Source: Promethearchaeota archaeon | GTDB taxonomy: Archaea; Asgardarchaeota; Lokiarchaeia; Sigyniarchaeales; SOKP01 | Assembly: GCA_029838195.1 (NCBI GenBank) | Contig: JALGVJ010000039.1 | Coordinates: forward strand, 1 to 32,549 | Direction of reading: 5' to 3' | DNA length: 32,549 nt | Shown: positions 8,168 through 10,347 of the stretch, piece by piece | Numbering within the stretch: position 1 is the first letter of the stretch | How the letters are laid out: each line of letters opens with the position of its first letter | Made by a program: the position numbers and the translations under genes | The notes under the pieces: generated by a model | Told to the model about the DNA's origin: nothing | Database searches by the model: none | What the model saw: the letters and a program-made list of their open reading frames with translations, nothing else

Positions 8168-8611
8168 GGCTCATCAACTCCTTTTTTTTCTTGCTCCTAT
8201 TCCTTATAAAATTGTTATTAGCTAAAAATTTTATCACGTGGGAAAATAAAAAAAAATACTTAGATTTTGAAATGATCTAATTAAAATAATTAGGGTTTCA
8301 AGAAAAAACACTTGTTTTTTATTCCACGTGTAGTGAGAATTTTCATGGCCATGAGAGTAACTTGATATTAAGTAAGTATTTGAAATATATAGGGCTGATT
8401 CCATATCAAAACGATGAGTAAATAAAGCGTTCGAAAGAAGAATGCAAATGAAGAAGAGAGAGGCACGTGATATAAGATGATTAAAAAGAGATTCAATAGC
8501 TTAAATAAGAATTTATTTAAATAAATCAGACATTTTGCACACTCATGATTCTTATAGGGGTATTCATTATGATTCTTAATTAATCAAAAATACACGTGAA
8601 AGAGTAATAAA

Positions 8612-10171
8612 ATGTATGTAGCAGCATTAGATTTGGGAACAACAGGCGGGCGAACCATGCTATATGATTTCTCCGGTACATTAATCGCAAGCGCATATCA
8701 AGAATGGAGTTCAATTTATCCATCTCCCGCATTTGTTGAGCAAGATGCGAATGCGTGGTGGGAAACCATTAAATTGACTTCTGAGGCGGCTTTGAAGAAG
8801 AGCGGAATCGATCCTTCCGAGGTGGTCTCTCTTTCCATTACCAACCAAAATTCTTGGAATTTCTCCGTGATTGGTTAAAGGGAAACCATTGTACCGGTTG
8901 ATAGAAAAGGCACGCCGCTTCATAATGCAATAGTGTGGCAAGATCGCAGGACAACAGAGCAAGTGGAATTCATTAAGAAAAAAGTAGGAATAGACAGGGT
9001 TTATAAAATTACGGGTTTAACGATTGATCCGTATTTTTCTGCCACAAAGATTCTTTGGTTTAAGGAAAAAAAACCCACCATTTATCAGAAAACACATAAA
9101 TTCTTGCTGGTATCCGACTATATCTTGTACAAACTAACAGGTAAATTTGTTTCGGATCATAGCAATCTGAGCCGGACCATGCTATTTGATATCAATAATC
9201 TCAAGTATTCAGACGAGATTGCTGCCGAATTAGAGTTAGATTTGGATAAAATGCCCGAACCCATGAAGTGTGGGGAGGAAATTGGAGAGATCATGAGTGA
9301 TGAAACGGCATTTGACAAGAAAACTTTAGTCATTACGGGAGCCGGAGATCAACAAGCGGCAGCCTTAGGCGTGGGAGTGAATGCCCCGGGCGAGATCAAG
9401 TGTACAACGGGTACGGGAAGCTTCATTTTGGCTTATTTAGAGAAACCCACGTTTGATCCTCAGAAAAGGGTATTATGCAGCTGCCATGCGATTCCCGGCA
9501 CGTGGGTTCAAGAAGCGAGCATTTTTACAACAGGAGCGGCGCTACGATGGTTTCGAGATCAAATTGGAACCGCTGAATGCTTGGAAGCAAAAGAAGGGCA
9601 AGATCCTTATGATATCATGACACGAAAAGCGGCGGAGTCCCCCATTGGAGCAAATGGACTGGTTTTTATCCCTCATTTAGTAGGTGCTGGAGCTCCTCAT
9701 TGGAATCCTTATTCAAGGGGAATATTATTCGGTTTATCACTGGGCCATCAAAGAAAAGATCTTTATCGGGCAGTACTCGAAGGTGTGGCGTTTGAAGTAA
9801 AGAAGAACATAGAGATTTTTAGGGAGTTAGGAATCAGGCCAGAAGAATTGAAGGTGACGGGAGGAGGCTCTCGTTCTGATTTATGGAACCAGATAATGGC
9901 AGACGTGTTGGGTATTACTTGTGTTAGAAACGTGATTGAAGAAGCCACCTCCTTGGGGGCAGCAATTTTAGCTGCGGCGGGTGCCGGGATTTTTCCGGAT
10001 ATTTCTAAAGCTGCCGATAATCTATGCAAGGTAGAAAAGAAATACGTGCCCAATCAAGGGCATCATGAGCTGTATGATAAATTGTATTATTTTTCGAAGG
10101 ATCTTTATACTTTATTAAATGAACACTCTGTTTACCGGAAAATTCATGACCTCAATCAAAAGGAGGAATAA
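8612..10171 (+). CDS. FGGY-family carbohydrate kinase (xylulo/glycerol kinase-like), two exons 8612-8848 and 8879-10171, 509 aa if spliced
   Basis: DLGTTGGR N-terminal motif; after removing 30 nt reads SITNQRETIVPVD..G.PLHNAIVWQDRR; also GAGDQQAA, TTGTGSF, GAGAPHW, GGGSRS. Both ORF-track fragments are in the same frame. Confidence 0.9.
8849..8878 (+). other. Candidate 30-nt BHB (tRNA-endonuclease type) mRNA intron
   Basis: Central helix AACC 8843-8846 pairs with GGTT 8873-8876; 3-nt bulges AAA 8847-8849 and AAA 8877-8879; intron hairpin 8850-8872; exon pairs CC/GG; in-frame TAA at 8876-8878. Confidence 0.78.
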
Positions 10172-10347
10172 AATAATAGATTTTTAATTTTTTAAATTTT
10201 TCTTTTCATTTTCAGTTTATTATAGGAAAACCACAATTTTATATAGATTAATTGTTATCTCTTAAAATAAGAAAAGATTAAATTTATTCAAGAAATTTAA
10301 ACATAATGATTTGAATCTTATTTGAATGAAAACAGTAGAGGAATCTC

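What the first reader, a model, noticed from the sequence alone, without database searches (positions are those of the whole stretch)
8838..8890. Candidate bulge-helix-bulge intron in the mRNA of a sugar kinase (tRNA-type mRNA splicing in a probable Asgard archaeon)
Seen: the kinase frame reads ...S-I-T-N-Q, then 30 extra nt (AATTCTTGGAATTTCTCCGTGATTGGTTAA, ending in in-frame TAA), then resumes in the same frame with R-E-T-I-V-P-V-D. Removing the 30 nt restores TNQRET, a highly conserved FGGY/glycerol kinase motif. The two paralogues in this window (AQRMAVV, FHRATCS) have no insert there, and the gene shows no other lesion. The junctions fold as a textbook BHB: a 4-bp central helix AACC(8843-46)/GGUU(8873-76), 3-nt bulges AAA(8847-49) and AAA(8877-79) on opposite strands, exon pairs C8842-G8880 and C8841-G8881, and an imperfect intron hairpin (A8850-U8872, U8852-A8870, C8853-G8869, U8855-G8867, GGA8856-58/UCC8864-66). 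Established: the archaeal splicing endonuclease EndA cuts after the second nucleotide of each bulge and RtcB ligates. Here that means cuts after 8848 and 8878, exactly the 30-nt insert. The archaeal mRNA precedent I know is the crenarchaeal cbf5 intron, and eukaryotic XBP1 has a similarly short non-spliceosomal, RtcB-ligated intron. Inference: this metabolic gene needs EndA/RtcB splicing to be expressed, and annotation pipelines would miscall it a pseudogene.
Basis: partly seen in the sequence, partly recalled or inferred. Interest (0 to 1): 0.95.

Follow-up and report, generated by a model that had tools for sequence, protein, structure and literature searches.

The report
tRNA-type mini-intron in Asgard kinase gene
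A sugar-kinase gene of a Loki-type Asgard archaeon is interrupted by a 30-base hairpin shaped like the introns archaea cut out of tRNAs, so its mRNA very probably has to be cut and re-joined by the tRNA-splicing enzymes before it can be translated, which published work documents for only one other archaeal coding sequence (cbf5).

Summary
An FGGY (xylulokinase-like) gene, 8612-10171 (+), is broken only by 30 nt (8849-8878, in-frame TAA) between TNQ and RET. Pfam profile positions 1-78 and 79-245 meet exactly there.

The insert sits at the same site in 7 of about 125 orthologue-bearing Lokiarchaeial genomes and in 13 metagenome contigs, as 15 distinct sequences of 29, 30, 32 or 33 nt. The 29- and 32-nt forms rule out read-through. 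Every complete carrier gene has no other lesion, and dN/dS among carriers is 0.04-0.2.

The exon/intron 4-bp helix, the two AAA bulges and a 6-bp inner stem covary (96% of cells paired, 6 of 10 pairs with double changes). Cuts after the second bulge base remove exactly the insert. The genome encodes two EndA paralogues (alpha/beta type) and RtcB.

"Textbook BHB" is overstated. In this genome the inner stem is imperfect, the exon-side closure is weak, and the MFE z-score is -0.4, so the motif is the relaxed HBh' class.

No RNA data were available, so splicing itself is inferred. I verified a second such intron in dnaG of this genome. Earlier follow-ups in this scan reported the same kind of intron in other Asgard genomes, and I found no published Asgard case.

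The parts
8612..8848 (+). Exon 1 of the FGGY (xylulokinase-like) kinase, 79 codons ending ...SITNQ
   Evidence: ORF and translation. Pfam FGGY_N profile positions 1-78. Exon 1 is 237 nt in every complete orthologue.
8849..8878 (+). 30-nt intron with in-frame TAA at 8876-78. The boundaries can slide within the AAA/AAA repeats without changing the spliced product.
   Evidence: Absent at exactly this point in about 118 orthologues. Present as 29-33-nt variants in 7 genomes and 13 metagenome contigs.
8879..10171 (+). Exon 2 of the kinase (430 codons plus stop), starting RETIVPVD
   Evidence: Pfam FGGY_N 79-245 and FGGY_C. NCBIfam best hit XylB, from profile position 80.
8843..8846 (+). 5' strand of central helix H (AACC, exon 1: codons AAC CAa)
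   Evidence: Pairs with 8873-76. The C-G pair becomes U-A in the 9 of 15 aligned sequences that carry AAUC/GAUU, a synonymous Asn codon change compensated in the intron.
8873..8876 (+). 3' strand of central helix H (GGUU, last bases of the intron before the bulge)
   Evidence: Helix 1 is paired in 93% of cells.
8847..8849 (+). 5' bulge AAA. Predicted EndA cut after A8848.
   Evidence: Invariant AAA in all 15 variants. Flanked by H and the inner stem in the RNAalifold consensus. The cut rule (between the 2nd and 3rd bulge base) is taken from PMC2738675.
8877..8879 (+). 3' bulge AAA. Predicted EndA cut after A8878. A8879 is the first base of exon 2.
   Evidence: AAA in 14 of 15 variants and AAC in one.
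8850..8872 (+). Inner hairpin h' of the intron. It is imperfect in this genome (7 of 9 pairs, two U.U mismatches).
   Evidence: In the orthologues it is a clean 6-bp stem, with 5 of 6 pairs showing double changes and 97.7% of cells paired.
8821..8842 (+). 5'-exon bases that can close the 3' bulge.
   Evidence: RNAalifold consensus. The 3-bp helix is fully paired in 12/12 intron-bearing versus 7/16 intronless genes, and the 6-bp helix in 7/12 versus 1/16. The lineages are not independent, so this is suggestive only.
8880..8890 (+). 3'-exon partner bases of the possible outer (exon-exon) helices

Best explanation
The 30 nt at 8849-8878 are a bulge-helix-bulge intron of the relaxed HBh' class in the pre-mRNA of an FGGY sugar kinase of a Lokiarchaeial (Asgard) archaeon.

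In the transcript, the last exon-1 bases AACC (8843-46) pair with the intron's GGUU (8873-76). This central helix is flanked on opposite strands by the bulges AAA 8847-49 and AAA 8877-79. The intron body forms a hairpin stacked on the helix, and exon-exon pairs close the other side weakly.

The heteromeric (alpha-beta)2-type splicing endonuclease EndA encoded in this genome cuts after the second base of each bulge, that is after A8848 and A8878. RtcB joins the exons to read ...ACC AAC CAA|AGG GAA ACC (TNQ|RET), giving a 509-aa kinase, and probably circularises the 30-nt intron. Unspliced mRNA would yield only an 88-aa fragment.

Shown here: the insert, its conserved site, its covarying structure, the intact and selected host gene, and the presence of the enzymes. 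Inferred: cleavage, ligation and circularisation. Among lineages the intron is patchy. At least once it moved together with exon 1 by recombination.
For: 1. Exactly 30 surplus nt split Pfam FGGY_N between profile positions 78 and 79, and there is no other lesion.

2. The same site is interrupted in 7 of about 125 orthologue-bearing genomes of one family (genera g1, g6, g11, g2) and in 13 metagenome contigs from other studies. All other orthologues read TNQRET without a break. This excludes an assembly artefact.

3. The 15 distinct inserts measure 29, 30, 32 or 33 nt. The 29- and 32-nt forms shift the frame, so the insert cannot be translated through.

4. Every complete carrier gene has a 237-nt exon 1 and a roughly 1.3-kb exon 2 with no stop or frameshift. 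dN/dS among carriers is 0.04-0.2, while synonymous sites are near saturation between the intron types.

5. Covariation: 95.9% of cells are paired, against 27-63% when the 3' partners are slid by 1 to 3 columns. Six of 10 pairs show changes on both sides. No shuffle out of 500 reached the observed score. The change from C-G to U-A in the central helix couples a synonymous exon change to an intron change. RNAalifold finds the same helix, bulge and stem on its own.

6. The BHB cut rule applied to that covarying helix removes exactly the surplus bases.

7. Junction codons are fixed in carriers (ACC AAY CAA|AGR, with one CGA) but vary in intronless genes.

8. The genome encodes two roughly 200-aa EndA paralogues, each with N- and C-terminal domains, plus RtcB. 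Asgard EndA is reported as (alpha-beta)2 with the L1 loop tied to broad specificity (PMC5829648). The cbf5 mRNA introns also use unconventional BHBs cut by such an enzyme (PMC2738675).

9. A second coding-sequence intron of the same build, in dnaG, is present in this genome and in G001 and G014, and is absent from 9 relatives.
Against: There is no RNA-level evidence.

In this genome the motif is imperfect. The inner stem has two U.U mismatches. The MFE fold differs from the BHB register and is no more stable than shuffled sequence (z = -0.40).

The exon-side closure of the 3' bulge is only 2 bp here and 1 bp in the orthologues. Alternative exon-exon helices leave a 6-7-nt loop on the 5' strand, so the 3' cut site sits in an internal loop rather than a clean bulge.

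Four of the 15 variants have an A.C mismatch in the central helix.

My two genome-wide scans for further BHB-joined ORFs gave no excess over an opposite-strand control.
Confidence: 0.85

Rival explanations
1. Pseudogene: a small hairpin-forming insertion inactivated the kinase, and the gene is decaying.
For: There is an in-frame TAA after codon 88. The distribution among orthologues is patchy.
Against: Fifteen distinct insert variants all keep both exons complete, with no second lesion. dN/dS among carriers is 0.04-0.2, with synonymous sites near saturation. The insert itself keeps a covarying structure. The genome has no close second copy; the nearest paralogue is 42% identical.
Confidence: 0.03
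2. Translational bypass (ribosome hopping, as in phage T4 gene 60): the ribosome takes off at CAA, skips the hairpin and lands before AGG. No RNA cutting is involved.
For: A conserved hairpin directly follows the last sense codon. The frame-independent lengths of 29-33 nt would also fit hopping.
Against: Take-off and landing codons do not match: CAA versus UAA in 11 of 15 variants. No stop codon follows the take-off codon. From my own knowledge, no archaeal precedent exists. Hopping does not explain why 4 exon bases pair and covary with the intron's 3' end, or why 3-nt bulges sit at both junctions in the exact register of the EndA cut rule.
Confidence: 0.04
3. Split gene: the 88-aa N-terminal piece and a separately initiated C-terminal piece are made as two polypeptides that assemble.
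For: The first start codon listed in the exon-2 frame is GTG at 8933.
Against: That start would delete the conserved RETIVPVD...HNAIVWQD segment. The split lies inside the FGGY_N domain core. The 10 extra residues and the stop differ between variants, and the 29- and 32-nt forms change the tail. This reading does not explain the covarying exon/intron helix.
Confidence: 0.03

Closest known systems
cbf5 pre-mRNA intron of Crenarchaeota (Aeropyrum, Sulfolobales, Desulfurococcales; Watanabe 2002, Yoshinari 2006, Yokobori 2009 = PMC2738675)
   Same: It is a short intron inside a protein-coding sequence that must be removed for function. The BHB is unconventional or relaxed, with cuts between the 2nd and 3rd bulge bases. 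It is linked to a hetero-oligomeric EndA of broad specificity. Its phylogenetic distribution is patchy, with inferred losses.
   Different: The host gene is a metabolic FGGY kinase, not an RNA-modifying enzyme. The lineage is Asgard/Lokiarchaeia, not Crenarchaeota. The insertion site is unrelated. cbf5 splicing has been shown by cDNA and by in vitro cleavage, whereas here splicing is only inferred. Here exon 1 and the intron show recombinational transfer between genera.
Archaeal tRNA introns (hBHBh', HBh', hBH classes; Marck & Grosjean 2003), including the heavily interrupted tRNA genes of Asgard archaea (bioRxiv 10.64898/2026.10.13.758758)
   Same: The motif geometry is the same: a 4-bp helix that is half exon and half intron, with 3-nt bulges on opposite strands. 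The intron size is of the same order. The predicted enzymes are the same. The HBh' class is counted among recognised motif classes.
   Different: The substrate is an mRNA coding region, so the exon half of the motif must also encode TNQ|RET. No tRNA body is present to help recognition.
BHB intron in the 5' UTR of Haloferax volcanii HVO_1309 (PMC7714728)
   Same: It is an mRNA that is an EndA substrate, and the excised intron is circular.
   Different: That intron lies in an untranslated leader and does not interrupt the reading frame. The host is a euryarchaeon.
HAC1/XBP1 unconventional mRNA splicing in eukaryotes
   Same: Both involve a short (26-nt in XBP1) non-spliceosomal intron whose removal changes the reading frame or product. 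In animals the ligation is by RtcB (abstracts listed).
   Different: Cleavage there is by IRE1 at paired stem-loops, not by the tRNA endonuclease at a BHB. That pathway is stress-regulated, and no regulation is known here.

Membership tests
Archaeal BHB intron (EndA substrate) | A 4-bp central helix formed by the last 5'-exon bases and the 3' end of the intron | tested here: met
   AACC 8843-46 pairs with GGUU 8873-76. This arises in 0.9% of shuffled inserts. C-G changes to U-A in 9 of 15 variants. Four variants have an A.C at the outermost pair.
Archaeal BHB intron (EndA substrate) | Two 3-nt bulges on opposite strands, one on each side of the central helix | tested here: inconclusive
   The 5' bulge AAA is cleanly flanked by H and h' in the consensus. 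The 3' bulge AAA is followed by only 1-2 adjacent exon pairs, or by a 3-bp helix that leaves a 6-7-nt loop on the other strand. This is HBh'/bulge-helix-loop-like.
Archaeal BHB intron (EndA substrate) | Cutting after the 2nd base of each bulge yields the functional, in-frame junction | tested here: met
   Cuts after 8848 and 8878 remove 8849-8878 and restore TNQ|RET, which is Pfam profile 78|79. The same rule works for the 29-, 32- and 33-nt variants.
Archaeal BHB intron (EndA substrate) | A flanking helix h' (intron) or h (exon) of at least 2 contiguous pairs | tested here: met
   h' is 6 bp with 5 covarying pairs in the orthologues. In this genome h' has 7 of 9 pairs, but the first pair is isolated by a U.U mismatch. 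h is CC/GG, 2 bp.
Archaeal BHB intron (EndA substrate) | The host encodes a splicing endonuclease able to cut relaxed motifs, and an RtcB ligase | tested here: met
   Two roughly 200-aa EndA paralogues carry PF02778 and PF01974. One aligns to the catalytic half and one to the structural half of fused EndA models. RtcB scores 553 bits. The L1 specificity loop was not examined.
Archaeal BHB intron (EndA substrate) | A spliced RNA junction or circular intron is observed, or the transcript is cleaved in vitro | not testable with these tools
   No RNA run was listed for this DNA, and read laying was therefore not used.
cbf5-type archaeal pre-mRNA intron | A BHB intron interrupting a protein-coding frame, in a gene kept under purifying selection | tested here: met
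   The gene and the site differ from cbf5, so this is the same kind of intron but not a homologous one.
FGGY carbohydrate kinase (host gene) | FGGY_N and FGGY_C domains contiguous after removal of the insert | tested here: met
   The best NCBIfam model is XylB xylulokinase, at 316.6 bits for exon 2 alone, which is below the equivalog cut-off of 380. The substrate is therefore not assigned.

The most novel reading that the evidence does not exclude
This intron is one member of a lineage-wide population of EndA/RtcB-spliced micro-introns in Lokiarchaeial protein-coding genes. In this genome that population includes at least dnaG and probably TFE. The introns persist under selection and spread between genera by recombination that carries the flanking exon along. 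On this reading, Asgard archaea routinely splice mRNAs with the tRNA-splicing enzymes.
Probability: 0.55. Interest if true: 0.9.

Novelty: new member of a known kind. Interest (0 to 1): 0.75.

Why it matters
Protein-enzyme splicing of archaeal coding sequences is documented in the papers I could search only for cbf5 in Crenarchaeota. This would be a well-supported case in an ordinary metabolic gene of an Asgard archaeon, the group closest to eukaryotes.

The comparative evidence is unusually strong for such a short element: covariation that links an exon codon to the intron, and length variants that break the frame.

It matters in three ways:
- Annotation: genes like this may be called truncated or as pseudogenes, which would distort metabolic reconstructions of Asgard MAGs. 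I did not test this.
- RNA biology: it shows what EndA can recognise outside a tRNA.
- Evolution: it raises the question of how intervening sequences arise, persist and move in the archaeal relatives of eukaryotes.

It also gives a concrete, short substrate for in vitro tests.

Tried and rejected
RNA evidence: the look-up of sequencing runs (kind rna) listed no RNA holder for 8500-10200.

Genome-wide census of further BHB-split ORFs in G000, three attempts, none usable:
- BHB motif plus joined-ORF test gave 13167 same-strand against 12987 opposite-strand control hits, and 1911 against 1876 after a no-ATG filter.
- A relaxed inner stem, insert lengths of 18-60 nt and a folding-energy filter gave 610 against 611. 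The scan did recover the dnaG intron, but its inner-stem rule excludes the kinase intron itself.
- A requirement for a junction-spanning alignment to a paralogue gave 10 against 9 loci at the strictest setting.
These scans can neither count nor exclude other introns.

Other searches:
- Rfam found no family at 8700-9000.
- ARAGORN found no tRNA in the window.
- Short open frames in G103, G083, G059 and G086 turned out to be contig ends, not inserts.
- Six order-wide and five metagenome pattern hits were chance or upstream TNQ matches.

Rejected readings:
- An assembly artefact is excluded by the independent assemblies.
- A self-splicing intron is excluded because the element is far too small.
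- Stop-codon read-through is excluded by the 29- and 32-nt variants.
Full report
THE OBSERVATION

The window is contig C46 of a 4.5-Mb, 96.6%-complete assembly. An FGGY carbohydrate-kinase gene starts at 8612. It reads ...SLSITNQ (ACC AAC CAA, ending at 8848). Next come 30 nt (8849-8878) that end in an in-frame TAA. The gene then continues in the same frame as RETIVPVD..., open to 10171.

Pfam FGGY_N matches the first piece at profile positions 1-78 and the second at 79-245, followed by FGGY_C. The 30 nt are therefore surplus to the family, and the gene has no other lesion. The best NCBIfam model is xylulokinase XylB, starting at profile position 80. The two other FGGY genes in the window are uninterrupted at the equivalent motif.

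THE FOLD IN THIS GENOME

- AACC 8843-46 with GGUU 8873-76.
- AAA bulges at 8847-49 and 8877-79.
- C8842-G8880 and C8841-G8881.
- An inner hairpin with 7 of 9 pairs and two U.U mismatches.

The geometry is that of the archaeal motif. The central helix is half exon and half intron, the bulges lie on opposite strands, and the cuts fall after the second bulge base. PMC2738675 states this cut rule for cbf5.

With the insert shuffled, a 4/4 central helix in the required register occurs in 0.9% of trials. Together with at least 7/9 inner pairs it occurs in 0.015%.

Thermodynamically the region is ordinary: MFE -12.5 kcal/mol, z = -0.40. The MFE uses a 6-bp AACCAA/UUGGUU helix instead. "Textbook" is therefore too strong. 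On this sequence alone the case would be suggestive only.

COMPARATIVE EVIDENCE

This evidence carries the case. Searching 135 genomes of the same family found orthologues in 125. The frame stops at the same point in seven of them: G000 and G001 (genus g1), G017 and G052 (g6), G074 (g11), and G110 and G124 (g2).

A codon-level pattern search of the whole order (154 genomes) found these seven and no others. A scan of 185,579 species genomes, with a stricter pattern that fixes the bulge bases, returned the six carriers other than G000 and nothing else. Most of the record titles name Promethearchaeia/Promethearchaeota (Loki) MAGs.

A metagenome scan added 13 true hits from other studies. An assembly artefact is thus excluded.

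In all there are 15 distinct sequences, with inserts of 29, 30, 32 or 33 nt. The 29- and 32-nt forms shift the frame, so the insert cannot be a translated or read-through segment. Every complete carrier gene has a 237-nt exon 1 and a roughly 1.3-kb exon 2 without a second lesion. dN/dS between carriers is 0.04-0.2, while synonymous sites are close to saturation between the intron types. The carrier genes are functional.

STRUCTURE CONSERVATION

On the alignment of the 15 sequences (A1), I tested the structure "4-bp helix, 3-nt bulge, 6-bp inner stem":
- 95.9% of cells are paired, against 27-63% when the 3' partners are slid by 1-3 columns.
- Six of 10 pairs have changes on both sides.
- No shuffle out of 500 reached the observed covariation score.

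The most telling pair lies in the central helix. A synonymous change in the Asn codon (AAC to AAU) is matched by G to A in the intron. That is, an exon base covaries with an intron base, as a BHB requires.

RNAalifold, given no structure, returns the same helix, bulge and stem. Applying the cut rule to this covarying helix removes exactly the surplus bases in all length classes.

Carriers also fix the junction codons as ACC AAY CAA|AGR (one carrier has CGA). Intronless orthologues use ACA/ACT/ACC, CAA/CAG and AGR/CGN freely.

WEAK POINTS OF THE MOTIF

The exon-side closure of the 3' bulge is only 2 bp here and 1 bp in the other carriers.

RNAalifold proposes two alternatives. One is a 3-bp helix between the Ser codon and GRG (8833-35 with 8880-82). 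The other is a 6-bp exon-exon helix (8821-26 with 8885-90). The 3-bp helix is fully paired in 12/12 carriers against 7/16 intronless genes, and the 6-bp helix in 7/12 against 1/16. The carriers are only about five independent lineages, and most of these pairs are fixed by the amino acids encoded, so this is a hint and not proof.

With these helices the 3' cut site lies in a 3-nt side of an internal loop. That is the relaxed HBh'/bulge-helix-loop class. Four variants carry an A.C at the outer pair of the central helix.

ENZYMES

The genome encodes two roughly 200-aa EndA paralogues, each with the N-terminal and catalytic domains. One aligns to the catalytic half and the other to the structural half of fused EndA models. 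There is also a third, short EndA-like ORF, and RtcB.

Published work assigns Asgard archaea the (alpha-beta)2 EndA with the L1 loop associated with broad specificity (PMC5829648). It links archaeal pre-mRNA splicing to such hetero-oligomeric enzymes (PMC2738675). A 2026 preprint reports two EndA paralogues in most Asgard genomes and heavily interrupted tRNA genes. Consistent with that, ARAGORN recognises only 16 tRNA genes in this nearly complete genome.

EVOLUTION

On the protein tree the carriers are not one clade. Each groups with intronless members of its own genus, and well-supported branches force at least three gains or losses.

Exon 1 tells a different story from exon 2:
- In exon 1, G017 (g6) and G074 (g11) are each other's nearest sequence (84% against 72-73% for the next nearest) and cluster with 100% bootstrap.
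- In exon 2, G074 groups with intronless G020 (100%) and G017 with intronless G024 (89%).
- mg059 and mg069 share exon 2 (86% identical) but carry different intron types and different versions of exon 1.

The intron has therefore moved together with exon 1 by recombination at least once. The rest of the pattern needs precise losses or further transfers.

CONTEXT IN THIS GENOME AND IN THE SCAN

Earlier first-reader notes on this genome list further candidate coding-sequence BHB introns. I checked two of them.

dnaG (G000:C38:54987-55023, minus strand) is split between GAIFGQ and TEGLL by 37 nt. These have helix GGCC/GGCU, bulges AGA and AAA, and an inner stem. G001 has a 37-nt version and G014 a 35-nt version at the same site. 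Nine relatives read straight through.

The TFE gene (G000:C69:44487-44516, minus strand) has a 30-nt in-frame insert containing TGA. Three of 4 central pairs and 9 of 9 inner pairs can form. I did not compare TFE across relatives.

Follow-up reports of this scan describe the same kind of intron in other Asgard genomes (radA, EF-1alpha, EF-2, cbf5, fbp and others). Those are unchecked AI notes, and I do not use them as evidence.

My own attempts at a census failed: three scans gave no excess over an opposite-strand control.

RIVAL READINGS

- A pseudogene is contradicted by the intact, selected exons and the conserved insert structure.
- Ribosome hopping would tolerate any insert length and likes a hairpin. 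However, the take-off and landing codons do not match (CAA against UAA in 11 of 15 variants), and no stop follows the take-off codon. Hopping also does not explain exon/intron covariation in the EndA register.
- A two-polypeptide split would cut the FGGY_N core. It would also lose a conserved segment, because the first start codon listed in the exon-2 frame is 18 codons downstream.
- None of these is excluded outright without RNA or protein data. Together I give them about 10%.

WHAT IS KNOWN, AND NOVELTY

In the library I could search, coding-sequence BHB introns are described only for crenarchaeal cbf5, and a 5'-UTR intron for Haloferax HVO_1309. A 2020 paper states that cbf5 is the only other case, and a 2025 endonuclease paper cites only the cbf5 papers for protein-coding genes. 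The searches found no paper on Asgard mRNA introns. The library is incomplete, so this is "not found", not "does not exist".

I class the finding as a new member of a known kind. The mechanism is the same as in cbf5, in a new gene and a new lineage, with strong comparative support but no RNA-level proof.

Noticed in passing
G000:C38:54987-55023, minus strand (L072:1488-1524): dnaG is split between GAIFGQ and TEGLL by a 37-nt frameshifting insert with BHB geometry (helix GGCC/GGCU, bulges AGA and AAA, inner stem). G001 has 37 nt and G014 has 35 nt at the same site. Nine relatives read straight through. In about ten further relatives the open frame ends within about 15 codons of the junction, but I did not inspect them.
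   Followed up: yes
G000:C69:44487-44516, minus strand (L091:1612-1641): The TFE (TFIIE-alpha) gene carries a 30-nt in-frame insert with a TGA between RDKSTG and WFIY. Three of 4 central pairs and 9 of 9 inner-stem pairs can form in the BHB register. It was not compared across relatives.
   Followed up: partly
L005 (G017), L026 (G074), versus L004 (G024), L011 (G020): The kinase gene is mosaic. Exon 1 plus intron of G017 (genus g6) and G074 (g11) group together (84% identity, bootstrap 100). Their exon 2 sequences group with intronless sister species instead. This points to recombination with a breakpoint near the intron.
   Followed up: partly
whole genome G000: ARAGORN recognises only 16 tRNA genes in a 96.6%-complete genome, 8 of them with called introns and some calls implausibly long. 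This agrees with reports that Asgard tRNA genes are heavily interrupted by non-canonical introns (preprint).
   Followed up: no
G000:C53:22042-22209, minus strand (L024:1495-1812): A third, short (106-aa) ORF matches only part of the EndA catalytic domain (29 bits). It comes in addition to the two full-length EndA paralogues on C1 and C8.
   Followed up: no
window 23352 (+) and 31977 (-): Two further FGGY kinase paralogues lie in the same 32-kb window, in uninterrupted frames of 529 and 496 aa. The genome has at least six FGGY genes.
   Followed up: partly
L054 and L069 (metagenome contigs SDBV01034498.1, SDBV01108333.1): A distinct 29-nt intron type (AAGUUUUAGAG...CUGAUUAA) occupies the same kinase site. 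mg069 shares an 86%-identical exon 2 with mg059, which carries the 32-nt form of the other intron type. The intron and exon 1 therefore turn over faster than exon 2.
   Followed up: partly
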